DNA of 32,000 nucleotides from Allobaculum fili (GTDB lineage: Bacteria > Bacillota_I > Bacilli_A > Erysipelotrichales > Erysipelotrichaceae), in contig NZ_JAHDSX010000003.1 in the NCBI RefSeq assembly GCF_020969955.1, positions 60,001 through 92,000 on the forward strand, read 5' to 3'. The notes beneath the pieces were generated by a model. That model was not told where the DNA came from. It did not search any database and was given only the letters and a program-made list of their open reading frames with translations. Position 1 is the first letter of the stretch; each line of letters starts with the position of its first letter. Shown piece after piece: positions 15,593-28,586 of the stretch. The translations under genes were made by a program, and so were the position numbers.

Positions 15593-15637
15593 AAAAAAAA
15601 AAGAAGAGCTGTCCCCTTACGTACAGTATCTCTTCTT
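15593..15637 (-). terminator. Strong rho-independent terminator closing the T7SS-like operon
   Basis: On the minus-strand RNA, stem AAGAAGAG/CTCTTCTT (15601-15608 / 15630-15637) plus an inner CTGT/ACAG is followed by a U-run of 8+ (complement of the A-run 15593-15600). It lies 25 nt after the stop at 15662. Confidence 0.8.
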
Positions 15638-15661
15638 TTTCTGTCCGATTTGCGAAACCCG

Positions 15662-16168
15662 TTATTCTTCGCAGGACTCTCCGCAGTTGCCGCAGAAACG
15701 GGCATCCAGCGGAAGTTTGGTGCCACAGAACGGGCAGTATTTAAACGTCATCGGCTGCTCGAACGGGTCTGAACGGTTTGAATCGCCGTTTCCGGTTTTG
15801 TTTCTGGAATCCAGATCTTCACACGGGCTGAGACTTTCGAGTCCATCTAAACTGTCCAGACTCTCAAGATTATCGAGACTGTCCAGATCGATTGAGCGAA
15901 GCTGGTCAAATATGCCGCCGGTTGAAGCGGCAGGTTCCGGTTTTGGCAGGTCCATCGTCTCAGTATGACGATCCCGCAGTTTGAGCTGTTCTTTAAGATG
16001 CGTAATCTGATCAAAATAAAGAATCAGTTCTGGCGTCGGTTCTTCGAAACGATTTTCATAAAACGCTTTGCCCAGTTCCCGGTACGCCGCATCGAGGGCT
16101 TCCAGAGACGATTCCCCTTGATCGGCTTTTGGCATTCGAATAAAAACTGTTTTATTATTTCCGCTCAT
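15662..16168 (-). CDS. Small cytoplasmic protein with C-terminal zinc ribbon and acidic Leu-Asp/Glu-Ser repeats (168 aa)
   Basis: C-terminal CPFCGTKLPLDARFCGNCG zinc-ribbon motif and a central IDLDSLDNLESLDSLDGLESL repeat. The ATG at 16168 lies 4 nt after the upstream stop (TAA 16175-16173). Confidence 0.75.
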   Translation of the reverse strand: MSGNNKTVFIRMPKADQGESSLEALDAAYRELGKAFYENRFEEPTPELILYFDQITHLKEQLKLRDRHTETMDLPKPEPAASTGGIFDQLRSIDLDSLDNLESLDSLDGLESLSPCEDLDSRNKTGNGDSNRSDPFEQPMTFKYCPFCGTKLPLDARFCGNCGESCEE

Positions 16169-16172
16169 AGTC

Positions 16173-16484
16173 TTACCCCAGTACAATCGCAAATTCGCGC
16201 TGCTTCAAATAGATCGCCGTATCCCGCCCAAGGTAATATCGACGATGTTTCCCCAGCGGCTGCCCGCTTTCTAAAAAGACAGCCCGGTTTTCAAACGGCT
16301 CAATTCCATACATGCCCAGATCACAATCGTAAAAAATGCCGACAGACGCCTTTTCGCTCTGTTCCAGAACGACTTCCGGCTCTTCCTCCATCTCCACGAA
16401 CACTTCTTCCAGATGGTGCAGCAGAACCGCTTCTCCCTTATGGAATGAGTCTGTGCCGATCAATACGCCTTCAAATCGGTTCAT
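16173..16484 (-). CDS. Hypothetical 103-aa protein (T7SS-locus associated)
   Basis: ATG 16484 is preceded by AAGGAGGA 8 nt upstream and overlaps the FHA gene 3' end by 14 nt. The track's 140-aa version starts further upstream without an RBS. No recognisable motif. Confidence 0.65.
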   Translation of the reverse strand: MNRFEGVLIGTDSFHKGEAVLLHHLEEVFVEMEEEPEVVLEQSEKASVGIFYDCDLGMYGIEPFENRAVFLESGQPLGKHRRYYLGRDTAIYLKQREFAIVLG

Positions 16485-17424
16485 GACGCAAATCCTCCTT
16501 GCTTTGTTCAAGCTGGAACAGCTGATTGGAGCCAAGGCGAAGAATCTGTCCGTCTCGGATTTCCGATTTCTGCGTGACGGGCTGATAATTGACAAACGTC
16601 TTGGAAGAAGAATTGAGATCTTCCACCATAACGCGATTCTCTTCCAGCGTCAGCCGGGCATGCCGCTCAGAGAGTGTCGTATCAAAATCGATGACAAAGT
16701 CGCTTTGCCTTCCGCATCCGATCAGCAGCTCTTTTTGCAGGCGAATCTGAATGCCCGTATTCATATGACGCAAAAACCAGTTTGACCGGGAACGCACGAT
16801 CGGTTCGGGCTCTGGGATGGAATCGGAATTTTGTACCATACCATCGTCAGAACTTTTCGGTATTTCAGCGAGCACTTCGACAGCTTCGGCAGCTTCGGCG
16901 GCTTCCTCTGGGGCTGGATCGGTTCTGAAGTCCAGCAAGTCATCCAGATCTCGCATAGCCGTATCTTCCGCCTTTTTTTCCTCGACTTCCTGATAATTTT
17001 GTTCCTGCTGAGTTTCGACAGGATCCGCTTTATCCTGCACGATGGTTTCTGCTGGACGTTCCGGTATGATTTCTGGAGCCTTCTTGCTCAAAAGGTCCGT
17101 CTCCACTTTGGAATCTGAGGAAAATTCCCGGAACATCTGATCAAAGATGTCTTTTTTGGATGACGTGGTTTCGTTTTTTGCGGATTCGAAAGCTGGAAAA
17201 CCGGCAGGCTTTTCTTCCGGAAAAACGAACGGTTCGGGTTCGGTCTGGGAATGGATGTTTGAGAAATCGCCGCCGCAGATTTCCTTTTCTTCGCTGTCTA
17301 CGGCTTTATGTCGAATGGGATCGCTGGCTGTTCTGGGAACCACGATCGGAATCAGCCCGCTAATACGGGCGGAAACCGGCGGGATATCCAGTGACGAAAC
17401 AGAAATCCACTTTGCTTTTTTCAT
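16471..17424 (-). CDS. FHA-domain protein with long acidic, probably disordered N-terminal region (317 aa)
   Basis: C-terminal FHA pattern: LLIGCGRQSDFVIDFDTTLSERHARLTLEENRVMVEDLNSSSKTFVNYQPV...DGQILRLGSNQLFQL (G-R ... S..HA ... N.t.vNg). ATG 17424 is preceded by AAGGAAGGA. Confidence 0.85.
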   Translation of the reverse strand: MKKAKWISVSSLDIPPVSARISGLIPIVVPRTASDPIRHKAVDSEEKEICGGDFSNIHSQTEPEPFVFPEEKPAGFPAFESAKNETTSSKKDIFDQMFREFSSDSKVETDLLSKKAPEIIPERPAETIVQDKADPVETQQEQNYQEVEEKKAEDTAMRDLDDLLDFRTDPAPEEAAEAAEAVEVLAEIPKSSDDGMVQNSDSIPEPEPIVRSRSNWFLRHMNTGIQIRLQKELLIGCGRQSDFVIDFDTTLSERHARLTLEENRVMVEDLNSSSKTFVNYQPVTQKSEIRDGQILRLGSNQLFQLEQSKEDLRHEPI

Positions 17425-17493
17425 GTGTCCTTCCTTATGGCTTATCGTGGTCTGCCTATCCTTTTTTCGGATTCCAAAGAAGGGGGCAGATAT

Positions 17494-17527: not shown

Positions 17528-17625
17528 CAGGTGCGATCCAGTCGGGCTGTACCCGGCGGATCGCTGAAACAAATTATGGATGCCGTTTTTTCGTCCTGGC
17601 TCGACGTCATTTTGAAAAAACGGTT

Positions 17626-17922
17626 TTATTTCATTTGTCGCTGAAGATCCAGAGCGCTTTCTTCACATCGTTTCAGACTCTCTTCCAGATCCTGAAGGGT
17701 ACGGGTCATTGCCGATTCGTAGTCTTCGAGGAGCTGCTGGAGCTTCTGATTTTCCTGTATCAGCGTTTCGCACGGATGGGCAGCCGCGTGGAGTTCAGGT
17801 GACTGTCTCAGATTTGCGATGATGGAAAGAAGAAGGTTTCTCTCCTGCAGAAGAGTCTCTCTGGAGCGATGGAGCTGTCGTGCCGAGGTTCGAATTTTAT
17901 CCGAAGATCGCATTCGCCTCAT
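17626..17922 (-). CDS. Small coiled-coil protein (95-98 aa), possible T7SS substrate or partner
   Basis: Heptad-like helical sequence (LIQENQKLQQLLEDYESAMTRTLQDLEESLKRCEESALDLQRQ). Start is ATG 17922 or 17913, overlapping the upstream gene's 3' end (stop 17897) by 17-26 nt. Confidence 0.55.
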   Translation of the reverse strand: MRRMRSSDKIRTSARQLHRSRETLLQERNLLLSIIANLRQSPELHAAAHPCETLIQENQKLQQLLEDYESAMTRTLQDLEESLKRCEESALDLQRQMK

Positions 17923-18223
17923 CTTCCAGCGCCTTCAGATCATCCGTGATGGTGCTCTGTGTCTGGGTCATGGAATTGAGATAGTTTTCAATCTGGGTTC
18001 TGGCAGCAATGGTTTTCGTGATTACCGTCTGCACATTATGCAGATGGGTATCCAGGTTTCGGACCGCGTCGTTTCCCACGTTGCCAATTACGCCGTTCTG
18101 CATATTTTCTTTAACTTTCTGCAGGTCTTTCTGATATCCCTGCATCTTATCCAGTTCGGCTCCAAGTTTGTCGAGAGTCTGTCGATATTTTTCTTCCGAG
18201 ACTTTAAGTTTCAGTTTTTCCAT
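17897..18223 (-). CDS. Small helical protein, WXG100/ESAT-6-like size class (108 aa), no W-x-G
   Basis: ~100-aa two-helix-type composition with a G/N-rich turn in the middle (ENMQNGVIGNVGNDAV). The RBS is weak (AAAGAAAG). Confidence 0.6.
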   Translation of the reverse strand: MEKLKLKVSEEKYRQTLDKLGAELDKMQGYQKDLQKVKENMQNGVIGNVGNDAVRNLDTHLHNVQTVITKTIAARTQIENYLNSMTQTQSTITDDLKALEDEANAIFG

Positions 18224-18283: not shown

Positions 18284-18604
18284 TTACTTGCCTTTTCCGA
18301 TGCCGGCAGAGCGGAGGGAATCCGTTGCATTTTTCTCCGCGCCGACCAGGGATTCTCCAGCGCGGATAAAGCCCTTCGCCAGATCCCAGATGACCTGTAC
18401 ACAGGCATCCACCAGATCTACAAACTCATTGCCGACTTCTTTAAGGTGATCCGAGAATGTACCTTCGCTTTCCTCGTACAGCTCTCCAATCAGTGCGTCT
18501 ACCGCTTTGCTGCTTTCCTGGATAACAGTTCCAATGTTTTGAAGATCTTCGGCAGACATATCCATAACTTCTGTTGCGACTTCCAGTTCCCAATTTCCAC
18601 TCAT
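18284..18604 (-). CDS. WXG100/ESAT-6-like small helical protein (106 aa) with degenerate central motif (S-E-G instead of W-x-G)
   Basis: Strong RBS (AAGGAGGAAAG). The N-terminus MSGNWELEVATEV...AEDL is like the M.G.I.V..E.L starts of Esx proteins. The central LYEESEGTFSDHLKEV aligns by eye with the WEGQAFSRFEEQF hairpin of EsxA. Confidence 0.7.
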   Translation of the reverse strand: MSGNWELEVATEVMDMSAEDLQNIGTVIQESSKAVDALIGELYEESEGTFSDHLKEVGNEFVDLVDACVQVIWDLAKGFIRAGESLVGAEKNATDSLRSAGIGKGK

Positions 18605-18630: not shown

Positions 18631-18813
18631 TTACTCACCATTTCGGATCAGCCATTCTTTCAGGCGCCGGATCTGCTCGAGCTGAGCCTGACGCGCGTGA
18701 ATGTATTCCCGGGAAAATTCTCCCTCCGTTTCGCGCTGCCAGCTTTCCACGTCCATTTCTATACTGTGGATCAGCCTTTGAATCTGATCGAATAGTTCCT
18801 GTCGGTTCTGCAT
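18631..18813 (-). CDS. Small helical protein (60 aa), T7SS-locus associated
   Basis: The ATG at 18813 overlaps the YukD-like stop as TGATG (translational coupling). All-helical composition. Confidence 0.6.
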   Translation of the reverse strand: MQNRQELFDQIQRLIHSIEMDVESWQRETEGEFSREYIHARQAQLEQIRRLKEWLIRNGE

Positions 18814-19064
18814 CAAAGTAAATATAGTACATCCCCCTGACCGATCGAATAATCTTTCAAATCGTTGCCGCTTTTTAATACGCGCTGCTGTTTTTGACTA
18901 AACAGAACTTCCTGTTCGGAGGCGTAATACTTTCCGCCGGCCAGATTTTCAACCGCCTGAGCGAGCAGCTGGGTCAGTTCCTTGCAGTCCATCGAATCCG
19001 GAACCATCAGGTTGTATGTTTTCTGAATGGAAGGAACGTATAAATCGATCAGTATTTTTTCCAT
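18813..19064 (-). CDS. esaB: YukD/EsaB-family ubiquitin-like T7SS protein (83 aa)
   Basis: MEKILIDLYVPSIQKTYNLMVPDSMDCKELTQLL...LKDYSIGQGDVLYLL fits the YukD pattern (I.IDL ... dL.vp ... L.d.gI.dGD.L.L) and the gene lies immediately downstream of essC. Start is placed at the internal ATG 19064 (GAAAGGAA upstream). The track's 107-aa version lacks an RBS. Confidence 0.8.
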   Translation of the reverse strand: MEKILIDLYVPSIQKTYNLMVPDSMDCKELTQLLAQAVENLAGGKYYASEQEVLFSQKQQRVLKSGNDLKDYSIGQGDVLYLL

Positions 19065-19293
19065 AAACAGTTCCTTTCTTTGCAGCTCTATTTTCGCCGC
19101 CGTATCCATCCTGGCTTTCGTTCGTTCAGGGGACATTCCGTCCGAAAGAAGGCCTGCTCTGAACCGTCTTTCCTTTCCCGGAGTCCTTTATCTTTTCTGA
19201 ATCAGATCACTTTTCACTTTCCCGATCACCATCTCTTTTCCAATCCCTTTCTCTTTCCTGACCCGTATCTCGTGCAAAATGCACGCAGCCGGT

Positions 19294-22200
19294 CTAGCTG
19301 AGAACCGGCCGTTCATCCTCATCTTCCTGTGCGGTTTTCCTTAAATCGCCAAGCGGAAGGAAAATGGTTTCGACCTGATCGTTTTCCCAGATCAGCCCGT
19401 TATTGAGATTTTGCGTTTTGGATGGACGGACAATTCTGGAATATTCGCGCGGCAAAGTCACCAGATCCTGCCGGTCAAAGCATCCGCCAAATAACAGGGT
19501 CAGTTTCCCTTTGAAATGTGACTTCATCATAGCGTCGAAGCGTTCCGGGTCATTGGCAAGGGTGAATCTTCGAAGTTCTTCTACTTCCTCGAGGGTCAGA
19601 TTCCCTTCGTCCAGCTTTGATTTTTCTGTCTCGTGCAGTTTTCGGCTGGCCAGAGAAATGCGTTCCTTGTCCTGAGGATGCCAGCCGAATACAAAATAAA
19701 TATTGAAACCGGCTGTGTTGTTAATGATCCCGCTTAAAGGTCCGGCAGATCCGGCACTGAGATTCAGGATCAGATCCCCGTAATCGTCCACGAGAATAAA
19801 CAGAGGCTCTGTTCTTCTTCGCATCTCTTTGCGGACGATTTTCAGGCTGGCGGCTTTTTTCCAGTCTTCGATGCCTTTTTCCTTCTGGATTTCCAGGCGG
19901 ATCGTTTTGCGCTCCTTTGCGATTTTCGCAAGCTGATTGACGAACGTGTTCACCGTCTGAGCGGTCAGTTTTGTCCACTCGATTCCTTCTCGATGCGTTT
20001 TGGGAAGCTCAGAAGCACTCAGTCGAATCACAGAGCCCCCGCTCTTTTTGACGGCGGTCTGAATGGCGCCCATGACGTAGTTCACAGCGTCTGGATTTCC
20101 AAAGTAGACAGGCAGGGTGCTCAGCTGCTGAAACGGCAGCGCAATCGGGCGCAGCCGGCTGCGGATAATTCCAAGCGGAATGCGTTCTGGTTTGAACGGC
20201 GCGATGAACTCCTCATACGTCTGTTCCGGATCGATCTGCGTCAGATGATCGGGCTCGGCTGCGTCTTTCCAGATCGTATTCGCGGTTTCAATTTGCGAAA
20301 GGATCTGACCGTAGCGTTCGGCGTCATCGAGCTGAGGGTCGAGCGCGGCTGCCTGGAACTCTAAAACCCGCTTGTCCTTTCGGATGTAGCCGCGTCCGGG
20401 AAGCGGATCGGGAAAGGCCTTCGGCCGGATATCCAGCAGATCCTGATACAGATACATATCGGTCAGCCGTAAGGGCAAAGACGTCTGAATGACGCTCTGC
20501 TGTCTGGCGGTCACATTGCGCACGTCCGCGACGAGAAGCATGAACTGAATGCCGAAAGCCGGTCCGTCCCTCAGCAGCCGAAGAAGCTGATCGAGCGCCT
20601 GACGGCCCTGTCCCCTGTCGGGGAAATCGTCAAATCCGTCAATGATAAAAAACGTCAGCGGAAGGCGCTGCACTCGGCGCATGGACGCAAAGCTCGTCCG
20701 GTTATACTGCGCAAACAGTTTTTTGCGTTTTTCGAGCAGATCGTACGCAAACTGAATGAGCAGGCAGAGTTCCTCTTCGGAAGGTCGGCTCATGCACATG
20801 CCGACATGTTTCAGTTGGGAAAACATGCCCAGTGACTTTCCCGTCAGGTCGGCAATATAAAACTGCAGATCTTCCGGTGAATTTCTATCGATTGAAGTGA
20901 GAAGAATGGTTTCCGCCAGCCAGGTTTTTCCAGTTCCCGGCTCGCCGGCAATTAAAATGTTTCCCGCATTGGCCAGATCCAGCGTATAGGGCAGCTGTTC
21001 CTGATTTTCCGGATCATCCGTCAGACCGATCGTTACCGAATAGGAATCTTCCGGCTGCTTCAGAGAGCTCAGGCTGATCTGCGGATTGAGCGGGTCGAGC
21101 CATAAGGAAGGCACTTCGATTCCCTTCTGTCTGGCCAGATCGGACAAATAGGTCACTAAGGAAACGAGCTGCGAGCGGCCTTTTTGCCGTCTGGTCTGAA
21201 TCGGCTTGGTTTTAAAATACGGTTCGCCATTGGGATCGAGAAAAAGGATTTCCTTGTTTTCCGAAGACTGCGCTTCATCGGACGGCTTATACTCGGCGCC
21301 GGTCCACGCGGACTGACCCATCGCAAAGTACTCGTCGTATCCCACCAGCATGTAAAAGCGGCCGGTTTCCTTGATTTCGGCCGCATAAGGCCGGTTGATC
21401 ATGTCATTGGAGTCGCTGCGGTCCTGAACTTTCAGGCTGACGCGGAATTTGGTGTTGCTTTTGATCTGACCCGTGACGACACCCGCCGGTTTCTGGGTCG
21501 CCAGAATGAGGTGGACGCCAAGGCTTCGGCCGATACGTGCAGTAGAAACGAGCTGATCGAGAAATTCCGGATGCTGGTCATTCAGCTCCGCAAACTCATC
21601 GGAAATAATGAGCAGATGGGAAACCGGTTCGCTCACAACGCCGCGGCGGTAAAGCTGCTGGTAGCCGTAAATGTCCATCGTTCCTTCGTTGGCAATGGAT
21701 TTGGCTTCATTGAATATTTTCTGGCGGCGCTTGAGTTCACTCTCGATCGATGCCAGAGCCCGGTTCATCGTGCTTTCGTCCAGGTTGGTAATCGTACCCG
21801 CAACATGCGGCAGCTTGATTCCGCGCTGCGGATCCACAAACGCGCCCGTAAGACCTCCGCCCTTGAAGTCGATCAGAATAAACGAGACTTCGTACGGATG
21901 ATAGTTAACGGCCAGCGACAGAACGTAGGAAATGATGAACTCACTTTTACCCGACCCGGTCATACCGGCGATCAGGCCATGCGGGCCATGCTTTTTTTCA
22001 TGAATATCCAGCTCAAACAAAGACCCGTCGGGATGGACACCGACTGGTGCAGCCAGCGTTTTCATCGGGTTGGAATCTTTCCAGCGCTGTTCAATATCGA
22101 GATGTTCAATACGGCCGGCTTTGTACATTTCCAGAAAGGTCAGCATCGCCGGCAGTTCTTCTTCCTTTTTCTCTTTGGGACGGCGGATATTGGAAATTTC

Positions 22201-24048
22201 GCTGAACGCCTTCATCAGAGCGTTTCTGGAAATCGAAGCGTCCAGACAGAACAGATCCGGCTTTTCCTGATGTTCCAGCTGCAAAATATGAATGCCTCCC
22301 TCTTCGAGAGAAAAGACTTTCGTACACTCCTTAGGCAGGATGGTCGAAAAGCTGAAAATGCTGAAGCCAAGGTTGTGTCCGGCCGTGACTGCTGTCCAGA
22401 GCGATTTTGCGGATTCAAGCAGTTCCTGCGAAAAGGAGAAGACCAGATAGTACGGCGGGTTTTCCAGAACCTGTTCGCGGCGGCCTTCCTTTTTCTGCGC
22501 TTCTTCCACTCGTTCACTCAGACGCTTGGATGCTTCGGCTGCATCGGCTTCGCTGGTAATAATCCAGCGAAACTCCTGCCGGTCATCCCAGATGTGGGGC
22601 AGAAATTTTAAAAACGGATTTTCCTCCAGCATATCGCGGTCCATGACCAGAATGATTTTCAGCTCTTCCGACGCATGCAAGTAGCAGATCTGAAACAGGA
22701 GCCGGTAAAACAAGGAGAGCTTTCTCTGCAGGCTGCCGCGCACGCCGCAAATGTAATCCTCGATAAAATCGACTGTGATCGGCGCATCCGTCAAGGCGTA
22801 ATCCTGTTCGACGAGCCCGTACATTTTGAGGGCCAGAGAATCTTCATCGACGCCAAACGATCGGGATGGATACTGAATTTCACTTTTGAGCGGAACTTTT
22901 CCTTTGCCGATGCGCAGACGCAGAAAGTCCTGATGAACCGGTCTTCTTTCCCACAGCCGTCTACGGCTGGGCAGAAAGCGGAACAGATCGTCTTCCGACG
23001 GATTGTTTTCGTTGAGGTCCTGCAGTTCCATCGCCTGAACCGTTTCAATCTGATTCTGGATTTCACTGAGATATTCGTTGTAGCGAACATACCGGCGGTT
23101 TTCGTATTCTTTTCGTTCTTTCTCGGTAAACTTCGAAGTCAGCATGGGAAACATGACCGAACTGATCAGAGACGTGAAGTTTCCATTGAGCGCACTCATT
23201 CCGGAAAACACAGCCGGGCCGCCAAGGCGCAGCAGCAGAGGAATCTTGTTGGCGCTCATGGAAAGGGGCGGCAGGTCGACGGTAATTTTGACGGGATCAA
23301 AATGAAACGCACGTTCGCGCGGCTTGCGAAAAAACGGGATGCTTTCCCTTGGTTTGGGAAGAGAAGACCATTCCTTTAACTGAATGGGGTCCGTCAGAGG
23401 CGTCAGGGAGCGCACGACCGTATGTTCGGTCAGGCTCTGGATCGATAAAAAGCCTAATCCGACGACAATCAGACAGCCTGGAAATTCCAGACGGTCGCCG
23501 GCCTGAAGCGAACGCAGCGAAACAAATTCGCCGTTTACGCGCGTTCCAAACGAACTGTGCTCATCGCGCAGATGCATGCCCTCCGAGGAAAGATCGATCG
23601 TCGCATGCAGACGGGAGACGAGCGGATTATCGATTTGAATGTCGTTTTCTGACATTCGGCCGATGTGAATCTGACCGGTGCGCGGCAGGAGAAAGTTTTT
23701 CATCAAAACGGTATCTTCCGCATCCTCGATCAGCAGAACCTGCAGCCGAATCGAACCGAATTCAATTTCAAAGGCTTCCAGATTCTGAAGATCCAGACTC
23801 GTCTGCGGCTGCGTCTGATCCCAGGCTTTCAGCCGCCCGTTTCCAAAAATGGAAATTCTCTGCTCCTTTTCGTTGCGTTCAAACCAGAGGTTGATGAAGC
23901 TGTATCGATCCGAAAGCCAGATGCGACTTCGTCCGATGGGGTACTGGGACAGAGATTTGACCGTGATCAGCTGCCCTTCATGAATGAAGTACAGATTTCT
24001 GGAGCATTCTGGTACCTGTTTTAAAGAGAGTCCCTGTTCTCGACCCAT
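19294..24048 (-). CDS. essC: Type VII secretion ATPase EssC/YukB (FtsK/SpoIIIE family, N-terminal FHA domains), 1584 aa
   Basis: The N-terminal FHA region has a degenerate FHA1 and a canonical FHA2 (IHIGRMSENDIQIDNPLVSRLHATI...FGTRVNGEFV, about nt 23464-23676). A hydrophobic stretch consistent with two TM helices follows (aa ~268-303). There are three P-loop-type domains: D1 Walker A GMTGSGKS (nt 21943-21966) with Walker B LLIISDEF, D2 GEPGTGKT with IIDGFDD, and D3 without a Walker A. The RBS is AGGAAGTG. Confidence 0.95.
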   Translation of the reverse strand: MGREQGLSLKQVPECSRNLYFIHEGQLITVKSLSQYPIGRSRIWLSDRYSFINLWFERNEKEQRISIFGNGRLKAWDQTQPQTSLDLQNLEAFEIEFGSIRLQVLLIEDAEDTVLMKNFLLPRTGQIHIGRMSENDIQIDNPLVSRLHATIDLSSEGMHLRDEHSSFGTRVNGEFVSLRSLQAGDRLEFPGCLIVVGLGFLSIQSLTEHTVVRSLTPLTDPIQLKEWSSLPKPRESIPFFRKPRERAFHFDPVKITVDLPPLSMSANKIPLLLRLGGPAVFSGMSALNGNFTSLISSVMFPMLTSKFTEKERKEYENRRYVRYNEYLSEIQNQIETVQAMELQDLNENNPSEDDLFRFLPSRRRLWERRPVHQDFLRLRIGKGKVPLKSEIQYPSRSFGVDEDSLALKMYGLVEQDYALTDAPITVDFIEDYICGVRGSLQRKLSLFYRLLFQICYLHASEELKIILVMDRDMLEENPFLKFLPHIWDDRQEFRWIITSEADAAEASKRLSERVEEAQKKEGRREQVLENPPYYLVFSFSQELLESAKSLWTAVTAGHNLGFSIFSFSTILPKECTKVFSLEEGGIHILQLEHQEKPDLFCLDASISRNALMKAFSEISNIRRPKEKKEEELPAMLTFLEMYKAGRIEHLDIEQRWKDSNPMKTLAAPVGVHPDGSLFELDIHEKKHGPHGLIAGMTGSGKSEFIISYVLSLAVNYHPYEVSFILIDFKGGGLTGAFVDPQRGIKLPHVAGTITNLDESTMNRALASIESELKRRQKIFNEAKSIANEGTMDIYGYQQLYRRGVVSEPVSHLLIISDEFAELNDQHPEFLDQLVSTARIGRSLGVHLILATQKPAGVVTGQIKSNTKFRVSLKVQDRSDSNDMINRPYAAEIKETGRFYMLVGYDEYFAMGQSAWTGAEYKPSDEAQSSENKEILFLDPNGEPYFKTKPIQTRRQKGRSQLVSLVTYLSDLARQKGIEVPSLWLDPLNPQISLSSLKQPEDSYSVTIGLTDDPENQEQLPYTLDLANAGNILIAGEPGTGKTWLAETILLTSIDRNSPEDLQFYIADLTGKSLGMFSQLKHVGMCMSRPSEEELCLLIQFAYDLLEKRKKLFAQYNRTSFASMRRVQRLPLTFFIIDGFDDFPDRGQGRQALDQLLRLLRDGPAFGIQFMLLVADVRNVTARQQSVIQTSLPLRLTDMYLYQDLLDIRPKAFPDPLPGRGYIRKDKRVLEFQAAALDPQLDDAERYGQILSQIETANTIWKDAAEPDHLTQIDPEQTYEEFIAPFKPERIPLGIIRSRLRPIALPFQQLSTLPVYFGNPDAVNYVMGAIQTAVKKSGGSVIRLSASELPKTHREGIEWTKLTAQTVNTFVNQLAKIAKERKTIRLEIQKEKGIEDWKKAASLKIVRKEMRRRTEPLFILVDDYGDLILNLSAGSAGPLSGIINNTAGFNIYFVFGWHPQDKERISLASRKLHETEKSKLDEGNLTLEEVEELRRFTLANDPERFDAMMKSHFKGKLTLLFGGCFDRQDLVTLPREYSRIVRPSKTQNLNNGLIWENDQVETIFLPLGDLRKTAQEDEDERPVLS

Positions 24049-24234: not shown

Positions 24235-24387
24235 TCAGCTTTTCGCCCGGTATTCTTCGTGAATCGCCTGAAGAATCTGCTGTTCTTTTTTCTCTTTGAC
24301 ATTGTTCAGATAAATCAGAACGGCCAGACAGATCACAACGCCGACAATGGCAATTCCCAGGCAGATGATTCCGATGGTTTTGTTCAT
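24235..24387 (-). CDS. Unlisted 50-aa single-pass membrane peptide (MNKTIGIICLGIAIVGVVICLAVLIYLNNVKEKKEQQILQAIHEEYRAKS)
   Basis: Found by manual translation and too short for the ORF track. ATG 24387-24385 overlaps the kinase TGA (24386-24384) as ATGA. It has one hydrophobic helix followed by a charged tail, with stop TGA at 24237-24235. Confidence 0.55.
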   Translation of the reverse strand: MNKTIGIICLGIAIVGVVICLAVLIYLNNVKEKKEQQILQAIHEEYRAKS

Positions 24388-26375
24388 TCGAGCCATCCTC
24401 CGTTTTCTACTTCTTCATGCTGGGTTTCGAGCAGATCCATCTCGGTATCTCCAGTCGAGCTGTCGTACTGCGCGAAAGCCTGCTGATAATACTGATCAAA
24501 GGTGTGGAACTCCCGGGCCGTAACCGGCGCCGCCAGCTGTCGATCGAGTTCCAGGAACGCGCGGCGTTTCGCATTGTTGTAATGACCGGGCTGTACTTCT
24601 TCCATGCGGGCAATGTTTTTTTCCACTTCATCAAAGCGGCCGAGTTTCTGGTTTACTACGGCCAGATTGTTCAGATCCTGATACGAGGCATAGTTCTGAT
24701 TCACAATTTCCTGAAGAAGATCCGCCTCCTTCTGGAGATACTTCTTGTCTGGCGAATTTGAAGCCAGGCGCGAATAGACGCGAATCAGCCGCTGACGCAT
24801 TCTTAATCCATACGCCTCGGGCAGTTTTTCGATCGCTTCTTCTAAAAGGCCGGCTGCTTTTTCATACTCGCCGACTTCCATTTTCCAGTCCGGAAGGCGG
24901 CAGTAAATCTGATACTGCATAGCCGGATCGGCTGTCTCCATTTTCAGCGCTTCAAGCTGTTCGATCGCCTGCGCGGTATTGCCCATCGCATGCTGGATCT
25001 CGCTCTGGGCAAGGACCAGATCGCCAGACGTCAGTCCGCCAGCCTGTGCCTGTTCCAGAACGGTATTCGCCTGATCGAAGTTTCCAAGATACGCCAGCGT
25101 GATGGCGTAATCGCGCGCCAGTGCGGCGTCGTCTTCCTGTAATTCGTAGGCTGAAGCGTAATTTTGCGCAGCCGGTTCATACTCGCCAAGCGCAAACTGC
25201 GACTCAGCCAGGTTTTTCAGCGCCTGCGCGAGATAGTTCGAATTTTTGGTAATGTCATCCATCTGCAAAACGGTATCCGCCAGATACTGTTCATTTTCCG
25301 CATATTTTCCCTGCGCGATCAGCATGTCCGAGCGCAGCAGGTCCGCATAGCCTTTGGAGGAGCTGACTTCCTTGGCTTTCTGATACGTTTCCTGCGCCTG
25401 GGCATACTGTCCGTTTCGAATCTGTTCGGTCATGGCCGTCGTGAGATGGTCATACTGATCTTTTCCATCCTGCACGATCAGGTAGACCGAGAACGCGCCG
25501 AGCGCGATAAAGAACACCAGCCCGGCAGTACAGAGGGTTTTCAGCGTTTTGACGGTCTTTCGCCATTTGCGAATGCGGCTGCTGGATTCTTCCATCACCG
25601 ACAGATCTTCCTTCATCTGCTCCGCGGATTCGTAGCGATCTTCCGGCTTTTGCGCGAGCGCCTTTTTCAGAATTTCCATAAACTCTTCTGAAGTTTTCGC
25701 GGCCAGCCCGTCCCATTGCGGATCTTCCGGGGTATAAATTTTTCCCATAGCCGCGTGATAGAGGGTGACTCCCAGCGAGTAAATGTCGCTGCGCGGGCTG
25801 AGCGCGCGAAAGCCGGGCATGGATCCGTGTGCCTGGAACTGTTCAAACACCCGTTTCTGTTCGGGAGAGCAGTAGTCTGGCGTTCCGCCGATGCCTTCCG
25901 CGCTGTTTCCTTCCATCGACGCGTTCAGATCAATAAGAACCGCGTCTCCATTTTTTCGAATCATGATGTTGGCCGGCTTTACGTCCAGATGAAGAATCGG
26001 CTTTTCCTGACGATGGAGTTCGCTTAAGGCAGAGGCAATATCCATCCCCATCTGCCGCAGCTGCAGCAGTCCAAAGTTTTCGCCGCTTTCCAGAATCTTT
26101 TCGAGCGAGCGCCCGTCAATAAATTCCATGACGGTGAAAAACTTCCCGTCGACTTCGAGGTAATCGTAGACGGCCGGCAAATACCGGCTTTTCAGTTTTT
26201 TCAGCAGGTTGGCTTCCATGCGGTTGGCTTCCTCATCGATCGAGGGGTTAAGAATCTGCTTTAAAACGACATACCGCCTCAGGTTGATCTGATAGGCCAG
26301 AATCACCAGGCCGCCTGTTCCGCTCCCGATTCTTCCTTTGATCTGATACATTTTCGAAAGTTCCGCTGATGTCAT
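24384..26375 (-). CDS. Hanks-type Ser/Thr protein kinase with a TM helix and C-terminal TPR-like repeats
   Basis: Gly loop GRIGSGTGG, VAIK-like YVVLKQI, catalytic loop HLDVKPAN (nt 25968-25991), DLN in place of DFG (Asp kept) and GTPDYCSPE. Then a TM helix (LCTAGLVFFIALGAFSVYLIV) and ~350 aa of TPR-like helical repeats. I prefer ATG 26375 over the track's TTG at 26411. Confidence 0.9.
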   Translation of the reverse strand: MTSAELSKMYQIKGRIGSGTGGLVILAYQINLRRYVVLKQILNPSIDEEANRMEANLLKKLKSRYLPAVYDYLEVDGKFFTVMEFIDGRSLEKILESGENFGLLQLRQMGMDIASALSELHRQEKPILHLDVKPANIMIRKNGDAVLIDLNASMEGNSAEGIGGTPDYCSPEQKRVFEQFQAHGSMPGFRALSPRSDIYSLGVTLYHAAMGKIYTPEDPQWDGLAAKTSEEFMEILKKALAQKPEDRYESAEQMKEDLSVMEESSSRIRKWRKTVKTLKTLCTAGLVFFIALGAFSVYLIVQDGKDQYDHLTTAMTEQIRNGQYAQAQETYQKAKEVSSSKGYADLLRSDMLIAQGKYAENEQYLADTVLQMDDITKNSNYLAQALKNLAESQFALGEYEPAAQNYASAYELQEDDAALARDYAITLAYLGNFDQANTVLEQAQAGGLTSGDLVLAQSEIQHAMGNTAQAIEQLEALKMETADPAMQYQIYCRLPDWKMEVGEYEKAAGLLEEAIEKLPEAYGLRMRQRLIRVYSRLASNSPDKKYLQKEADLLQEIVNQNYASYQDLNNLAVVNQKLGRFDEVEKNIARMEEVQPGHYNNAKRRAFLELDRQLAAPVTAREFHTFDQYYQQAFAQYDSSTGDTEMDLLETQHEEVENGGWLE

Positions 26376-26543
26376 AGTCTTCCCTGCTTCCCTTTTTCTC
26401 TCTGTCTGCAAGGATAGACGCCTGCGCGCGTATGGTTTTGCCTGTTCGATTCCAATGGAAAGGAACGGGCTGCGTACACGCAGACTTCTGTCCTCGTTTT
26501 CTGCTTTAGCTTTTATTCCCTGCTTAAGCGTTTACTGGCCGGC

Positions 26544-28586
26544 TTAAGCTTTTTTCTTTTTCACACCGTCAGCAGCTTCCGCTGGAGCCTGTGAAGGCTC
26601 GTCTTCTTTTTTCTGGTCCTGCGATTTTTCTTCCTTTGCTTTCAGTTCTGCGCTGTCTTTTTCATCCGGAGTCTGCGTTTTTTCTTCCGCTTCTGAAATG
26701 GCATTAACCCCAGCGTTTTCATTCTGGTCAAAGCGAACCAGTTTCCATTTCCCGTTGATTTTTACCGGCGCAACGCTGCGAATCATCCAGCCGCCGTCTT
26801 CAAACTCTCCGGCGTATTCGACTTTCAGACTGCCGTCCAGCATTTCAAATCCTTTTTTGGAATACGTTCCGATTCCATGCAGACCGGGTCTGGAAACGTC
26901 CAGGATTCCCTCTTTGGATTTCTTTCCGTCTGCGGAAATGATCGTGAACGTCCGATCTGTGTTCAGCGCTAAGAAGGGGCCCAGAGCATAGTTTTCCGTA
27001 TTCACTATGCTCATGGCGGGAACTTCGCGTTCGATCAGTGCAAAACAGGGAATCTGTTTTGCATCGTATGGACCGTAGGCTTTCCGGTTTACCGGATTGT
27101 AAATATAGTAGACATCCTCTTTCGCTTTGTCCTTTGCAGCGGGTGCCTTCTCATCGGAAGCGGCCTTTTTCTCGACGCGAACCAGAATCGGTGCGGCAGG
27201 CTGCTGGATGGCCGCTTTCTCATTTACAGTTTTTTCATTCGCAGAGGTTTCGCCGGACGCCTTTTTTGTATCGTCTGCTCCCGCATTCGGATCCGCTTTT
27301 CCATCCTGAGCGGCATCGGCAGCAGATGGATCGGAATCGGACGCGTCGTTGTTCTCCTTAGCAATCGGTGCTTCCTGGGAAGCAATTTTTTCCGAAGTGT
27401 TTCCGACTACGATAAGTTCGAGCTTTTCGTTGAGCGCGTAATGCGTCGTCTTTTCTGCAGCCGTTTTTTCATTCTTGTCGGCTGCAGCCGGCTTTTCTTC
27501 CTTCTTCGCGGAAGAGGGCTTTTCCTCTTTCTTGACGGGCACAGCTTTTGCTTCATGCAGATCTTTTGTAATTTCGTACTGTTTGCCCTGATCGTCCGCG
27601 CGCAGTGAAACAGACTGGATGCTTTCCGGAATTTTCGCCTGCGAATTTTTCAGCAGAATCTCGCAGCTGAGCTTTCGATCCGTACGGGTAACTTTTCCCT
27701 GCGGGGTCACAAAGCCGTAAACGCCGTCGGCGGCGATCAGCCAGCCCTGTTCGCCAATTTCAATCGGGGTAAAATCGAGCGGACCTAAATCCGCAACTTT
27801 CGTCCATCCCGGATCGGTTTTTCCGTCTTCTTCCGGTCTGGTTACATTGGCGAGCTGCGTATCAAACTCTTCCTGCTCACTGTCCGGCAGACTGGCATGC
27901 GCATCCGCAACGACCTGCTGGGCTTCAATCACATCTCCGCTTTCGATCAGGACCTGATAAAGAAGCAGGTAGGCGTCGGATCGGGCGGGATTGATTTCAA
28001 TTGCGGAATTCAGAAGACGGACAGCGGTCGCCACATCCGCCTGTTCAAGGGAATCCATCGCCTCATTCATATGCTTGCTGTACTGAATCGTATCGGCAGC
28101 CGCATTCATGACTTCTTCGATCGGTACGGCCTGACCCGCTTCGGCCATCTCGTTCACGTTTTGGGTAAACGTATCGTTTTCCTGCTGATCCAGAACGGTC
28201 TGCGCTTCTTCTACGAGCCCGATGAGCTGTTCTTCGTCGCCCTGATTCGAATACAGAGAATAGAGCTGTTCGTACGTATCGGATCGTTTCGGATCAATTT
28301 TCTTGGCTTCCAGAAGCGCTTCTTCCGCTTTGTCGTAATCCTGAGTTTCCATATATTTTTCTGCAGCCGCAATCGCTGCTTCATAGGAGTTTCCAGAATT
28401 CATCGACCGGCCCATCCAGCTGCCAAGGCCTACCCCGGCAGCGACGACTGCAGCCGTGCATCCAATTAAGATTCCTTTTTTGGCGCCTTTGGAAAGGCCG
28501 CCTTTCTTTTCGGGAGCCGGTGCTCCGCAGTTCATGCAGAACTTCATGCCGTCTGGAATTTCTGCTTTGCATTTTGGACATTTCAT
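26544..28586 (-). CDS. Bitopic protein: N-terminal zinc ribbon, TM helix, TPR-like repeats, K/E/A/P-rich linker, WG-repeat-like C-terminal region (680 aa)
   Basis: MKCPKCKAEIPDGMKFCMNCG zinc ribbon, then TM helix GILIGCTAAVVAAGVGLGSW. TPR-like segments follow (YEAAIAAAEKYMETQDYDKAEEALLEAKKIDP...; AVRLLNSAIEINPARSDAYLLLYQV...). There is low-complexity sequence (KKEEKPSSAKKEEKPAAADKNEK) and WG-repeat-like motifs (ADGVYGFVTPQGKV, INGKWKLVRFD). ATG 28586 is preceded by AGGAAGAA. Confidence 0.8.
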   Translation of the reverse strand: MKCPKCKAEIPDGMKFCMNCGAPAPEKKGGLSKGAKKGILIGCTAAVVAAGVGLGSWMGRSMNSGNSYEAAIAAAEKYMETQDYDKAEEALLEAKKIDPKRSDTYEQLYSLYSNQGDEEQLIGLVEEAQTVLDQQENDTFTQNVNEMAEAGQAVPIEEVMNAAADTIQYSKHMNEAMDSLEQADVATAVRLLNSAIEINPARSDAYLLLYQVLIESGDVIEAQQVVADAHASLPDSEQEEFDTQLANVTRPEEDGKTDPGWTKVADLGPLDFTPIEIGEQGWLIAADGVYGFVTPQGKVTRTDRKLSCEILLKNSQAKIPESIQSVSLRADDQGKQYEITKDLHEAKAVPVKKEEKPSSAKKEEKPAAADKNEKTAAEKTTHYALNEKLELIVVGNTSEKIASQEAPIAKENNDASDSDPSAADAAQDGKADPNAGADDTKKASGETSANEKTVNEKAAIQQPAAPILVRVEKKAASDEKAPAAKDKAKEDVYYIYNPVNRKAYGPYDAKQIPCFALIEREVPAMSIVNTENYALGPFLALNTDRTFTIISADGKKSKEGILDVSRPGLHGIGTYSKKGFEMLDGSLKVEYAGEFEDGGWMIRSVAPVKINGKWKLVRFDQNENAGVNAISEAEEKTQTPDEKDSAELKAKEEKSQDQKKEDEPSQAPAEAADGVKKKKA

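What the first reader, a model, noticed from the sequence alone, without database searches (positions are those of the whole stretch)
15593..28586. Atypical type VII secretion-like operon: EssC + YukD + small helical proteins, but no recognisable EsaA/EssA/EssB or toxins
Seen: twelve minus-strand ORFs from 28586 to 15662 are tightly packed. Junctions include ATGA (kinase / 50-aa ORF), TGATG (YukD / 60-aa ORF), a 14-nt overlap (FHA / 103-aa ORF) and a 4-nt gap (103-aa / zinc-ribbon ORF). A strong terminator at 15593-15637 closes the operon. T7SSb hallmarks are present: EssC with FHA region, TM helices and three P-loop-type domains (D1 intact; D2 Walker B DG rather than DE; D3 lacking a Walker A), a YukD/EsaB ubiquitin-like protein and ~100-aa helical proteins. 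Not seen: a large polytopic EsaA/YueB, EssA, a canonical pseudokinase EssB/YukC, LXG or other polymorphic toxins, or immunity genes. In their place are a catalytically intact-looking kinase, an FHA protein, two zinc-ribbon proteins, a 50-aa TM peptide and a 103-aa unknown. Established: in Staphylococcus and Bacillus the membrane core is EsaA-EssA-EssB-EssC. Inference: this is either a reduced or divergent T7SS subtype with a different membrane core, or an EssC-based machine with another role.
Basis: partly seen in the sequence, partly recalled or inferred. Interest (0 to 1): 0.7.

Follow-up and report, generated by a model that had tools for sequence, protein, structure and literature searches.

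The report
Kinase-regulated type VII secretion variant
This is a real and intact type VII protein-secretion gene cluster from the gut bacterium Allobaculum sp. Allo2; it belongs to the already published class of variants that use a membrane kinase and phosphothreonine-binding (FHA) modules instead of the classical EsaA/EssA/EssB core, but it sits on a rare branch of its own that no published subtype covers.

Summary
Twelve intact minus-strand genes (28586-15662) encode an EssC ATPase, a YukD-like protein, four small helical proteins, a membrane Ser/Thr kinase with an outer TPR domain, a 50-aa membrane peptide, an FHA protein, a 103-aa unknown and two zinc-ribbon proteins. No EsaA, EssA, EssB or LXG model matches any of them.

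Garrett, Higginson & Palmer (2024) described T7SSc-j, several with this kinase/FHA/zinc-ribbon logic.

This locus fits none of them fully:
- Its EssC is closest to TseC, at 36-37% identity. That equals the distance between TseC and TsdC. It is only 28% identical to TsjC.
- In NJ trees it falls outside the T7SSe clade.
- It lacks the PP2C phosphatase, the Ig-like TsxI protein and the DUF6382 domain.

The twelve-gene set recurs in three metagenomic relatives whose EssC is 43-46% identical. An exhaustive search found only one other 50%-identity cluster above 40% identity.

The DNA matches Allobaculum sp. Allo2 (CP078088.1) with 0 mismatches. That deposited genome carries 44 indels here, which fragment EssC and the kinase.

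Verdict: a new variant of a known kind, of moderate interest.

The parts
26544..28586 (-). g1, 680 aa. N-terminal zinc ribbon (cytoplasmic), one TM helix (about residues 38-56), an extracellular TPR domain, then a beta-rich and low-complexity C-terminal region. TsxK-like (zinc ribbon + 1 TM) but with a large outer domain.
   Evidence: Pfam Zn_Ribbon_1 E 1e-7 and TPR_19 E 3e-12. TM by hydropathy. The AF2 single-sequence model is confident only for residues 1-27 and 66-248, which is helical repeat. Orthologues: L088 729 aa (5e-34) and L089 1031 aa (9e-33).
24384..26375 (-). g2, 663 aa (TsxD-like). Hanks-type Ser/Thr kinase (cytoplasmic), one TM helix (283-301) and an extracellular TPR domain.
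   Evidence: Pkinase E 1e-30 plus several TPR models. Catalytic motifs are intact and conserved in the W-clade orthologues. Best solved relative is M. tuberculosis PknB at E 2e-13; no EssB/YukC among the 60 best hits listed (116 matched at E<=1e-8). Orthologues: L002 7e-138 and L089 5e-139.
24235..24387 (-). g3, 50-aa single-pass membrane peptide. Its start overlaps the kinase stop (ATGA). The charged C-terminal tail ends in a conserved E-E-Y motif. Candidate TsxH-like component.
   Evidence: Junction. TM at 7-25. Syntenic 54-55 aa peptides follow the kinase in L088, L089 and L036 and share the C-terminal motif; a 50-aa gene is called at the same position in L002.
19294..24048 (-). g4, 1584 aa. 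EssC/TsxC FtsK-SpoIIIE-type ATPase with an N-terminal FHA domain that keeps GR, SxxH and NG.
   Evidence: TIGR03928 803.7 bits, above the 778.4 cut-off. FHA E 6e-14. Walker motifs. FHA alignment. Phylogeny.
19286..19311 (-). G+C-rich hairpin at the EssC stop codon, at the start of a 229-nt intergenic gap. Possible internal attenuator or processing site.
   Evidence: Terminator-like scan hit. Folds to -22.8 kcal/mol. Function not tested.
18813..19064 (-). g5, 83 aa. YukD/EsaB-like ubiquitin-fold protein (TsxB) without a C-terminal Gly-Gly.
   Evidence: PF08817 E 8e-5, below the gathering score. Orthologues in L088, L090 and L007 hit PF08817 at E<=1e-5. phmmer hits in nearly all related loci.
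18631..18813 (-). g6, 60-aa predicted helical hairpin, translationally coupled to YukD.
   Evidence: Orthologues in L002 (6e-5), L088 (1e-10) and L089 (3e-9) at the same position. No Pfam hit.
18284..18604 (-). g7, 106-aa helical protein. Possible second WXG100-like protein or partner.
   Evidence: WXG100 E 0.058 for the window protein only. The family profile finds no EsxA among the 60 best of 96 PDB matches listed. Orthologues in L002 and L088.
17897..18223 (-). g8, 108 aa. Best candidate for the WXG100/EsxA-like core substrate (TsxA).
   Evidence: 6 of 8 family members hit Pfam WXG100 weakly, best E 0.003. The family profile aligns full-length to S. aureus EsxA 2vrz/2vs0 at E 0.03, amid coiled-coil noise. 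Sister-clade orthologues keep a W-x-D motif at the hairpin turn.
17626..17922 (-). g9, 98-aa helical protein overlapping g8 by 26 nt.
   Evidence: Weak DUF5344 match, E 0.015. Syntenic orthologues of about 93-101 aa in L002, L088 and L089.
16471..17424 (-). g10, 317 aa. Long N-terminal region without detected domains (read as disordered from its composition) plus a C-terminal FHA domain that keeps GR and SxxH. TsxJ-like, but without DUF6382.
   Evidence: FHA E 4e-14. No DUF6382 hit at E<=1. Motifs. Orthologues: L002 168 aa and L089 149 aa.
16173..16484 (-). g11, 103-aa protein of unknown fold (predicted all-beta), overlapping the FHA gene by 14 nt.
   Evidence: Orthologue after the FHA gene in L002 (9.5e-9). 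A 97-aa gene follows the FHA gene in L089. No Pfam hit. hhalign against TseJ/DUF6382 and against FHA gives probability below 1%. AF2 pLDDT 33.
15662..16135 (-). g12, 157 aa (168 aa from the upstream ATG). Soluble protein with a helical N-terminus, an acidic LDSL-type repeat and a C-terminal zinc ribbon.
   Evidence: Zn_Ribbon_1 E 3e-7. No TM. Orthologue L002 227 aa (1e-16).
15590..15645 (-). Intrinsic-terminator-like hairpin plus U-run that closes the gene row.
   Evidence: Sequence. Folds to -19.9 kcal/mol.

Best explanation
The locus encodes a type VII protein-secretion system of the kinase/FHA-associated lineage (the T7SSd/e supergroup of Garrett et al. 2024). It lies on a separate and rare branch with its own accessory set.

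Proposed working, by component:
- EssC (g4) is the membrane ATPase and channel subunit. D1 is the catalytic module.
- The YukD-like protein (g5) helps EssC assemble with its membrane partner, as YukD does in B. subtilis.
- The four small helical proteins (g6-g9) are the exported WXG100-like substrates or co-substrates. g8 is the EsxA-like one.
- The single-pass kinase with an outer TPR domain (g2) takes the topological place of the pseudokinase EssB, together with its coupled 50-aa peptide (g3).
- Where T7SSb has a fixed pseudokinase-FHA contact, this system probably uses threonine phosphorylation. The phosphothreonine would be read by the EssC FHA domain and by the separate FHA protein (g10, with its partner g11), switching assembly or activity on in response to an envelope or extracellular cue sensed by the TPR domain.
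- The zinc-ribbon proteins (g1 membrane-anchored, g12 soluble) are accessory parts equivalent to TsxK.
- No dedicated phosphatase is encoded within the 32 kb.

Shown here: the identity of the domains, intact motifs, conservation of the gene set, and the phylogenetic position.

Inferred: export, the phospho-switch, which protein is phosphorylated, and all roles of g1, g3, g11 and g12.
For: Identity of the core:
- EssC is above the TIGR03928 cut-off.
- YukD-like, FHA, kinase, TPR and zinc-ribbon domains are all detected.
- The kinase catalytic motifs are intact and conserved in orthologues.
- The EssC FHA keeps GR, SxxH and NG. In Garrett et al., Table S1, these are conserved only in the kinase-containing subtypes.

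Conservation:
- The gene set is found again around EssC proteins of 43-46% identity in L002, L088 and L089: orthologues of g2, g4, g5, g6 and g8 in all three, and the others in at least one, though not every gene in every locus and some contigs are cut.

Phylogeny:
- The W clade has 100% bootstrap support.
- W plus its sister clade has 100%.
- The supergroup that also contains TsdC and TseC has 87%.
- The best reference match is TseC, at 654 bits and 36% identity.

Substrate candidate:
- The g8 family is weakly but consistently WXG100/EsxA-like.

Literature:
- T7SSc-j with kinases, FHA proteins and zinc-ribbon TM proteins, and the proposal of phospho-regulation: PMC11217815.
- YukD promotes YukB-YukC assembly: PMC12637312.
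- The YukC pseudokinase was copurified with the YukB FHA domains, and YukC contacts all T7SSb parts: PMC9600267.
Against: - No secreted toxin or LXG protein and no immunity gene lies in the locus, so the payload is unknown.
- The WXG100 assignment stays below every curated threshold.
- The canonical S-x-N-G-T loop of the EssC FHA reads SSFGT in the window, and the Asn is also missing in L002, L088 and L089. pThr binding is therefore likely but not certain.
- The g10 FHA lacks NG.
- No conserved Thr was found in the kinase juxtamembrane segment, so no phospho-acceptor can be named.
- No PP2C is found in the 32 kb, which is unusual for a reversible switch.
- The phylogeny rests on NJ trees and on OCR-derived reference sequences taken from a supplementary PDF.
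Confidence: 0.72

Rival explanations
1. It is simply a member of the published T7SSe subtype, or of T7SSj, that has lost a few genes. On this view it is not a separate variant.
For: - TseC is the best-matching reference.
- The locus shares TsxA/B/C/D, an FHA protein and a zinc-ribbon TM protein with T7SSe.
- The TPR-bearing kinase recalls TsjD.
- A TPR kinase followed by a 55-aa peptide also occurs in a locus whose EssC falls in the T7SSe clade (Hungatella L036).
Against: - Window-TseC identity is 37%, the same as TseC-TsdC (37%) and below TseC-TsiC (41%). True T7SSe loci score 54-57%.
- The window clade joined the T7SSe clade in 0 of 200 bootstrap replicates.
- Identity to TsjC is the lowest among the Bacillota references, at 28%.
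- TsxF (PP2C), TsxI (Ig-like) and DUF6382 are all absent. The Neobacillus T7SSe reference locus has the DUF6382, Ig-like and PP2C-like genes.
Confidence: 0.15
2. It is an ordinary T7SSb whose EssB, EssA and EsaA are too diverged to be recognised. On this reading the kinase is EssB, the 50-aa peptide is EssA and the 680-aa protein is EsaA.
For: - The kinase has EssB's topology: a kinase fold inside, one TM helix, and a helical domain outside.
- EssC passes the Firmicutes EssC model.
Against: - No YukC, EssA or EsaA hit at E<=1.
- The kinase is catalytically intact, and its closest solved relatives are PknB-type kinases, not EssB/YukC.
- g1 has one TM helix, not the polytopic EsaA layout.
- The EssC FHA keeps the pThr motifs that T7SSb EssC lacks: 0% GR and 0% SxxH in TsbC.
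- Identity to S. aureus EssC is only 28-29%.
Confidence: 0.04
3. It is an EssC-based machine with a non-secretory role, for example a kinase/FHA envelope-signalling module or a DNA or protein translocase. Alternatively it is a decaying remnant.
For: - No toxin or immunity genes are present.
- The WXG100 matches are sub-threshold.
- The deposited Allo2 genome shows the genes in fragments.
Against: - The combination of YukD, EssC and a cassette of four small helical proteins is the T7SS signature, and it is conserved across the W and sister clades.
- All twelve ORFs are intact in the window. The identical EssC belongs to a 90%-identity cluster of 73 member sequences.
- The fragmentation in CP078088.1 consists of 44 indels with 0 mismatches, the pattern of assembly errors rather than decay.
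Confidence: 0.07

Closest known systems
T7SSe (Garrett, Higginson & Palmer 2024; e.g. Neobacillus/Bacillus spp.)
   Same: - The EssC has an FHA domain that keeps the phosphothreonine-binding motifs.
- It has a YukD-like TsxB and a membrane Ser/Thr kinase (TsxD).
- It has a separate protein with a C-terminal FHA domain (TsxJ-like).
- It has a small single-pass protein and a zinc-ribbon + 1-TM protein (TsxH/K-like).
- More than one small helical protein follows EssC.
- TseC is the best-matching reference EssC, at 36-37% identity.
   Different: - The EssC lies outside the T7SSe clade, at the same distance as TsdC.
- There is no PP2C phosphatase (TseF).
- There is no large Ig-like Sec-signal protein (TseI).
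- The FHA protein has no DUF6382 domain.
- The kinase carries an extracellular TPR domain.
- The zinc-ribbon membrane protein has a roughly 620-aa outer domain. Zinc-ribbon proteins are multiple and variable in relatives.
- There is an extra conserved 103-aa protein (g11) and a 60-aa hairpin protein (g6).
T7SSj (a few Clostridium species, e.g. C. acetobutylicum, C. felsineum)
   Same: - The kinase has a C-terminal TPR domain.
- The EssC FHA has all three pThr motifs.
- An FHA protein and a zinc-ribbon TM protein are present.
   Different: - Identity to TsjC is only 28%, the lowest among the Bacillota references, and TsjC branches far away.
- TsjF and TsjI are absent here.
- No T7SSj locus could be fetched for a direct gene-by-gene comparison.
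T7SSb (Staphylococcus aureus Ess, Bacillus subtilis Yuk)
   Same: - Both have EssC, a YukD/EsaB-like protein and small helical substrates.
- In both, a kinase-fold single-pass membrane protein sits next to an FHA-bearing EssC.
   Different: - There is no EsaA, EssA or EssB.
- The kinase is catalytically intact rather than a pseudokinase.
- The EssC FHA is pThr-competent.
- No LXG toxins or immunity genes lie at the locus.
Threonine-phosphorylation pathway of type VI secretion (PpkA-Fha-PppA of Pseudomonas aeruginosa, PpkA-TssL-Fha of Agrobacterium tumefaciens)
   Same: Both have the same logic. A membrane Hanks-type kinase and an FHA protein are encoded inside a secretion-system cluster, which suggests post-translational gating of assembly. 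This is an analogy only, cited in PMC11217815.
   Different: - The secretion machine is unrelated.
- T6SS clusters normally include the PP2C phosphatase PppA, which is missing here.
- No experiment exists for any T7SS of this type.

Membership tests
Type VII secretion systems in general | Membrane FtsK/SpoIIIE-family EssC/EccC ATPase with several P-loop domains | tested here: met
   TIGR03928 803.7 bits, above the 778.4 cut-off. Two FtsK_SpoIIIE stretches. Walker motifs.
Type VII secretion systems in general | WXG100-family (EsxA-like) small helical protein encoded with EssC | tested here: inconclusive
   g8 family: 6 of 8 members hit PF06013 at best E 0.003, below the gathering score, and the profile aligns to S. 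aureus EsxA at E 0.03. g7: E 0.058 in the window protein only. There is no W-x-G in the window proteins; sister-clade orthologues have W-x-D.
Type VII secretion systems in general | YukD/EsaB ubiquitin-like protein (absent only in T7SSd) | tested here: met
   PF08817 E 8e-5, at 23.7 bits and under the gathering score of 27. Orthologues pass at E<=1e-5. No C-terminal Gly-Gly.
T7SSb | EssB/YukC pseudokinase membrane protein | tested here: not met
   No PF10140/YukC hit at E<=1. The kinase has intact catalytic motifs, and its nearest solved structures are PknB-type, with no EssB/YukC among the 60 best hits listed (116 matched at E<=1e-8).
T7SSb | EsaA/YueB polytopic protein and EssA/YueC | tested here: not met
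   No Pfam or NCBIfam hit. The only large membrane protein, g1, has one TM helix.
T7SSb | EssC clusters with TsbC, and its FHA domains lack the pThr motifs | tested here: not met
   28-29% identity to S. aureus EssC; it clusters elsewhere. GR, SxxH and NG are present, against 0/0/21% in TsbC.
T7SSe | TseC-type EssC (phylogenetic clustering) | tested here: not met
   37% identity to TseC against 54-57% for Neobacillus loci. The window clade joined the T7SSe clade in 0 of 200 bootstraps. Caveat: NJ trees and OCR-derived references.
T7SSe | TseD membrane Ser/Thr kinase | tested here: met
   g2: Pkinase E 1e-30 and one TM helix.
T7SSe | TseF PPM/PP2C phosphatase | tested here: not met
   A PP2C profile built from related loci finds nothing in the six-frame translation of the 32 kb. 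None appears in the three relatives' contigs either. The rest of the genome was not searched.
T7SSe | TseI: large protein with a Sec signal and Ig-like domains | tested here: not met
   No Ig-like domain in any locus protein. The Neobacillus reference has Big_13/PKD domains.
T7SSe | TseJ: DUF6382 (N-terminal) plus FHA (C-terminal) | tested here: not met
   g10 has the FHA domain but no DUF6382 at E<=1. g11 against the TseJ alignment gives hhalign probability 0.2%. The Neobacillus TseJ hits DUF6382 at 5e-16.
T7SSe | TseK (zinc ribbon + 1 TM) and TseH (small 1-TM protein) | tested here: inconclusive
   g1 has a zinc ribbon and one TM helix but also a roughly 620-aa outer domain. g3 is a 50-aa single-pass peptide. 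No reference TseK or TseH sequences were available for a homology test.
T7SSj | TsjC-type EssC | tested here: not met
   28% identity and 389 bits, the lowest of the FHA-bearing references. It branches apart.
T7SSj | TsjD kinase with a C-terminal TPR domain | tested here: met
   TPR_12/16/14/19/1 matches over residues 330-540 of g2. Only the architecture was compared; homology to TsjD was not tested.
T7SSj | TsjF phosphatase and TsjI Ig-like protein | tested here: not met

The most novel reading that the evidence does not exclude
The window clade, and possibly its larger sister clade in Faecalibacterium and other gut Clostridia, is a T7SS subtype not covered by T7SSa-j.

Its membrane core would be a TPR-sensor kinase, a coupled roughly 50-aa peptide with a conserved E-E-Y tail, and a variable family of zinc-ribbon-anchored surface proteins. 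It has no dedicated phosphatase, so activation would be a one-way or housekeeping-reset phospho-switch. The zinc-ribbon proteins could be the docking partners of the FHA domains, or even the cargo.

It would be the first T7SS noted in Allobaculum, a genus with mucin-degrading members that several studies in the library link to colitis or barrier damage. It would have been hidden because the deposited genome is frameshifted at this locus.
Probability: 0.45. Interest if true: 0.55.

Novelty: new variant of a known kind. Interest (0 to 1): 0.4.

Why it matters
The biology of the kinase/FHA-type T7SS variants is entirely untested, and every published statement about them is bioinformatic.

This locus offers three things:
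- It adds a compact version with no dedicated phosphatase, in a cultured gut isolate (Allobaculum sp. Allo2), so knock-outs, secretomics and phosphoproteomics are feasible.
- It sharpens an evolutionary question. The fixed pseudokinase-FHA contact of T7SSb (EssB-EssC) may be a frozen relic of a real phospho-switch like this one.
- It shows that surveys restricted to RefSeq protein annotations can miss systems in genomes with indel errors. Here EssC is split into six ORFs in CP078088.1.

The limits are equally clear. No effector is identified, and the concept itself is not new.

Tried and rejected
1. AlphaFold2 on g11, single sequence because no usable homologues were found. Mean pLDDT was 33, so no fold search was run.
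2. AlphaFold2 on g1. Only the zinc ribbon and the TPR part are confident. The 430-aa C-terminal region is unmodelled, so a fold search was judged pointless.
3. Is g11 a split-off DUF6382 or a degenerate FHA domain? hhalign probability is 0.2-0.35%, so both ideas were rejected.
4. Are the g1 TPR and the g2 TPR paralogues? BLASTP shows no significant similarity. The apparent "kinase" HMM hit to g1 was a generic TPR signal from my full-length profile.
5. Is the g7 family WXG100? Only the window member hits, at E 0.058, and the PDB profile search returns only coiled-coil or designed proteins. This is left open.
6. GTDB genome scan with an EssC alignment.
7. Word-indexed homologue search for g1. 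It returned only g1 itself.
8. A bootstrapped tree built with Biopython's blosum62 distances timed out. It was replaced by a p-distance NJ tree.
9. A conserved juxtamembrane Thr as phospho-acceptor. None is conserved.
10. A T7SSj reference locus (C. acetobutylicum) could not be fetched. Only an OCR copy of TsjC from the paper's Fig. S2 was usable.

Full report
**Observation**

The window carries twelve consecutive minus-strand ORFs between 28586 and 15662. The same genes were called independently on a 61.7-kb Logan contig that encodes the identical EssC.

- The kinase and the 50-aa ORF overlap by ATGA.
- YukD and the 60-aa ORF overlap by 1 nt.
- The FHA gene and the 103-aa ORF overlap by 14 nt.
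- The 103-aa ORF and the last zinc-ribbon gene are 4 or 37 nt apart, depending on the start chosen.

The row ends in an A/U-rich hairpin of -19.9 kcal/mol followed by a U-run.

"Tightly packed" needs qualifying. There are four gaps of 168, 186, 229 and 201 nt, after g1, g3, EssC and g9. A G+C-rich hairpin of -22.8 kcal/mol sits right at the EssC stop codon. The row may therefore hold several transcription units.

**Domain content**

Pfam and NCBIfam scans of all twelve proteins gave the following:
- EssC scores above the curated cut-off of TIGR03928 (803.7 against 778.4 bits) and has one clear FHA domain.
- A YukD-like protein scores E 8e-5, just below the Pfam threshold. Its orthologues pass.
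- A Hanks-type kinase scores E 1e-30. It is followed by one TM helix and TPR repeats.
- One protein has a C-terminal FHA domain.
- Two proteins have zinc ribbons.

Nothing matched YukC/EssB, EssA, EsaA/YueB, LXG, DUF3130 or DUF3958, even at E<=1.

The kinase keeps GxGxxG, the VVLK lysine, HLDVKPAN, a DLN variant of DFG, and SPE. These motifs are conserved in its orthologues. Its closest solved relatives are PknB-type kinases, and no EssB/YukC appears among the hits listed.

The weak D2 Walker B and the D3 without Walker A also appear in the reference EssC, TseC and TsdC sequences of Garrett et al.. They are family traits, not oddities.

**What is already known**

Garrett, Higginson & Palmer (microLife 2024, PMC11217815) defined eight further T7SS arrangements, T7SSc-j, from RefSeq.

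Several of them replace EssB/EssA/EsaA with other parts:
- a membrane Ser/Thr kinase (TsxD)
- a PP2C phosphatase (TsxF)
- a DUF6382-FHA protein (TsxJ)
- small single-pass proteins (TsxH)
- a zinc-ribbon single-pass protein (TsxK)
- a large Ig-like protein (TsxI)

In the kinase-containing subtypes (d, e, j) the EssC FHA domain keeps the phosphothreonine-binding motifs GR, SxxH and NG, whereas T7SSb has lost them. The authors propose phospho-regulation by analogy with type VI secretion.

The held library contains no later paper that extends the scheme. It contains none that links Allobaculum with type VII secretion.

**Which subtype?**

The window EssC FHA has IGR, SRLH and VNG, which is the kinase-type pattern.

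I recovered one reference sequence per subtype from the OCR text of the paper's Fig. S2. These are noisy and cover about 1000-1290 residues each.

BLASTP ranks TseC first at 654 bits and 36% identity. It is followed by TsiC (506), TsdC (462), TsgC and TsfC (about 440), S. aureus EssC (396, 29%) and TsjC (389, 28%). Genuine T7SSe loci score 50-54% against the same TseC reference (Neobacillus, whose TseJ, PP2C-like, kinase and Ig-like TseI genes were checked here, and L013).

On a trimmed alignment, window-TseC identity is 37.0%. That equals TseC-TsdC (37.2%) and lies below TseC-TsiC (41.3%).

NJ trees with 200 bootstraps gave these supports:
- 100% for a "W clade": the window, L002, L088, L089, P0002 and P0006.
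- 100% for W plus a sister clade "S": MAGs of Faecalibacterium, Merdiplasma and others.
- 87% for the supergroup that also holds TseC and TsdC.
- 0% for W joining the T7SSe clade.

By the paper's own criteria of phylogeny plus gene content, the locus is therefore a separate branch of the T7SSd/e supergroup. It is not T7SSj, despite the shared TPR kinase.

**Conservation**

The nearest EssC relatives in 5.8 billion protein clusters are only 43-46% identical, and all come from metagenome assemblies.

Three of their contigs repeat the gene set:
- a TPR kinase with an overlapping 50-54 aa peptide
- EssC
- an 83-85 aa YukD-like protein
- a hairpin protein of about 60 aa
- three helical proteins of about 100 aa
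- a small FHA protein followed by a protein of about 100 aa
- several zinc-ribbon proteins, variable in number and size (155-1031 aa), including g1 and g12 orthologues

None of these contigs has a PP2C gene, although the contigs are short. The sister clade does carry one or two PP2C genes, and often a vWA-FHA fusion. No PP2C is found anywhere in the 32-kb window.

An exhaustive HMMER search of 1.84 billion cluster representatives with EssC residues 1-660 found only one other representative above 40% identity. The next hits are at 35-37%. The W type is conserved but rare.

**The small proteins**

The g8 family is the best EsxA candidate:
- Six of eight members touch Pfam WXG100, best E 0.003.
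- The profile aligns end to end with S. aureus EsxA at E 0.03.
- Sister-clade members keep W-x-D at the hairpin turn.

All of this is below curated thresholds. For g7 there is no family-level support. g6 and g9 have syntenic orthologues only.

g11 is conserved next to the FHA gene but is related neither to DUF6382 nor to FHA. It could not be modelled.

For g1, only the zinc ribbon and a TPR domain are modelled with confidence.

**Source organism**

A g11 fragment is annotated in Allobaculum sp. Allo2. The corresponding 20 kb of CP078088.1 aligns to window 6248-26504 with 0 mismatches and 44 gap openings.

In that deposited genome EssC is split into six ORFs and the kinase into two. This pattern is typical of uncorrected indel errors. 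It may explain why protein-based surveys did not list this system.

Allobaculum belongs to the Erysipelotrichaceae, not the Clostridia.

**Mechanism**

Shown here: an intact EssC, a YukD-like protein, an intact membrane kinase, FHA domains with the phosphate-binding Arg and Ser, co-inheritance of the set, and the phylogenetic position.

Taken from established work:
- YukD promotes the association of YukB (EssC) with the pseudokinase YukC (PMC12637312).
- YukC contacts all T7SSb components and was copurified with the YukB FHA domains (PMC9600267).

Inferred, for this locus:
- The TPR kinase and its coupled peptide occupy EssB's place.
- Threonine phosphorylation is read by the EssC FHA domain and by the g10/g11 pair.
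- That read-out gates assembly or activity.
- The small helical proteins are exported.

Weak points:
- No phospho-acceptor can be named.
- The S-x-N-G-T loop is SSFGT in the window, and the Asn is likewise absent in the three relatives.
- There is no phosphatase.
- No effector is identified.

**Verdict**

The kind is already known. This is a new, rare variant of it in a cultivable gut bacterium, of moderate interest.

Noticed in passing
window 1834-10698 (-): A separate three-gene cluster. It holds a 1197-aa protein with an N-terminal Tubulin_2 domain (PF13809, E 1e-60; 4265-7858), an 879-aa protein with no Pfam match but a DDSGSM MIDAS-like motif and a hydrophobic stretch near its C-terminus (8059-10698), and a 659-aa protein with hydrophobic stretches (1834-3813). 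The same Tubulin_2 gene is seen, fragmented, in CP078088.1.
   Followed up: partly
window 11512-11601 (+): tRNA-Ser (GGA) lies in a low-GC gap between the tubulin-like cluster and the genes flanking the T7SS locus. Whether it marks an island border was not examined.
   Followed up: no
L091 = CP078088.1 2274770-2294982, against window 6248-26504: The deposited Allobaculum sp. Allo2 genome is identical to the window except for 44 indels in 20 kb. These split EssC into six ORFs and the kinase into two. The cause is probably assembly error, which would hide the system from protein-based surveys.
   Followed up: yes
window 24235-24387; L088 1765-1929; L089 14757-14921; L036 13658-13825: The roughly 50-aa single-pass peptides that follow the TPR kinases share a charged C-terminal tail ending in E-E-Y, R-E-Y or K-K-Y. 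This also holds in a Hungatella MAG whose EssC falls in the T7SSe clade.
   Followed up: partly
L002 2397-4706 (-): A 769-aa fusion of an FHA domain with an ABC ATPase and an ABC-2 permease is encoded divergently beside the W-type T7SS of a relative, next to its small FHA protein.
   Followed up: no
L088 1997-9692; L089 1893-2903 and 9472-14674; L002 1-1485, 8314-9555 and 16665-18098: Relatives carry three to six zinc-ribbon (Zn_Ribbon_1/DZR) proteins per locus. They vary widely in size, from 155 to 1031 aa, and have no other known domain apart from one weak SH3_3 hit on a neighbouring 155-aa protein that has no zinc-ribbon hit. Their variability resembles that of polymorphic surface or cargo proteins.
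   Followed up: partly
L014, L018, L019, L026, L047 and about 40 other loci: A large clade of EssC genes, mostly from MAGs labelled uncultured Bacilli (some carry other labels), is 44-46% identical to TseC. It has no kinase, PP2C or FHA protein within 10 kb. Its subtype was not determined.
   Followed up: no
L005 8360-9982; L036 9519-11195: A sister-clade locus and a T7SSe-clade locus each encode a vWA-FHA fusion protein directly upstream of EssC or near the kinase. This recalls the vWA component TscE of T7SSc.
   Followed up: no
L061, L063, L065, L078: In my crude ORF calls these loci show, besides an EssC-like ORF of 1517-1555 aa that matched my FHA profile (itself built partly from full-length EssC proteins), a longer ORF of 1698-1964 aa. 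Whether that longer ORF is EssC-like was not checked; for L063 it gave no BLASTP hit to any reference TsxC.
   Followed up: no
window 15662-16135 (g12), residues about 95-120: An acidic near-repeat, LDSLDNLESLDSLDGLESL, lies between the helical N-terminus and the C-terminal zinc ribbon.
   Followed up: no
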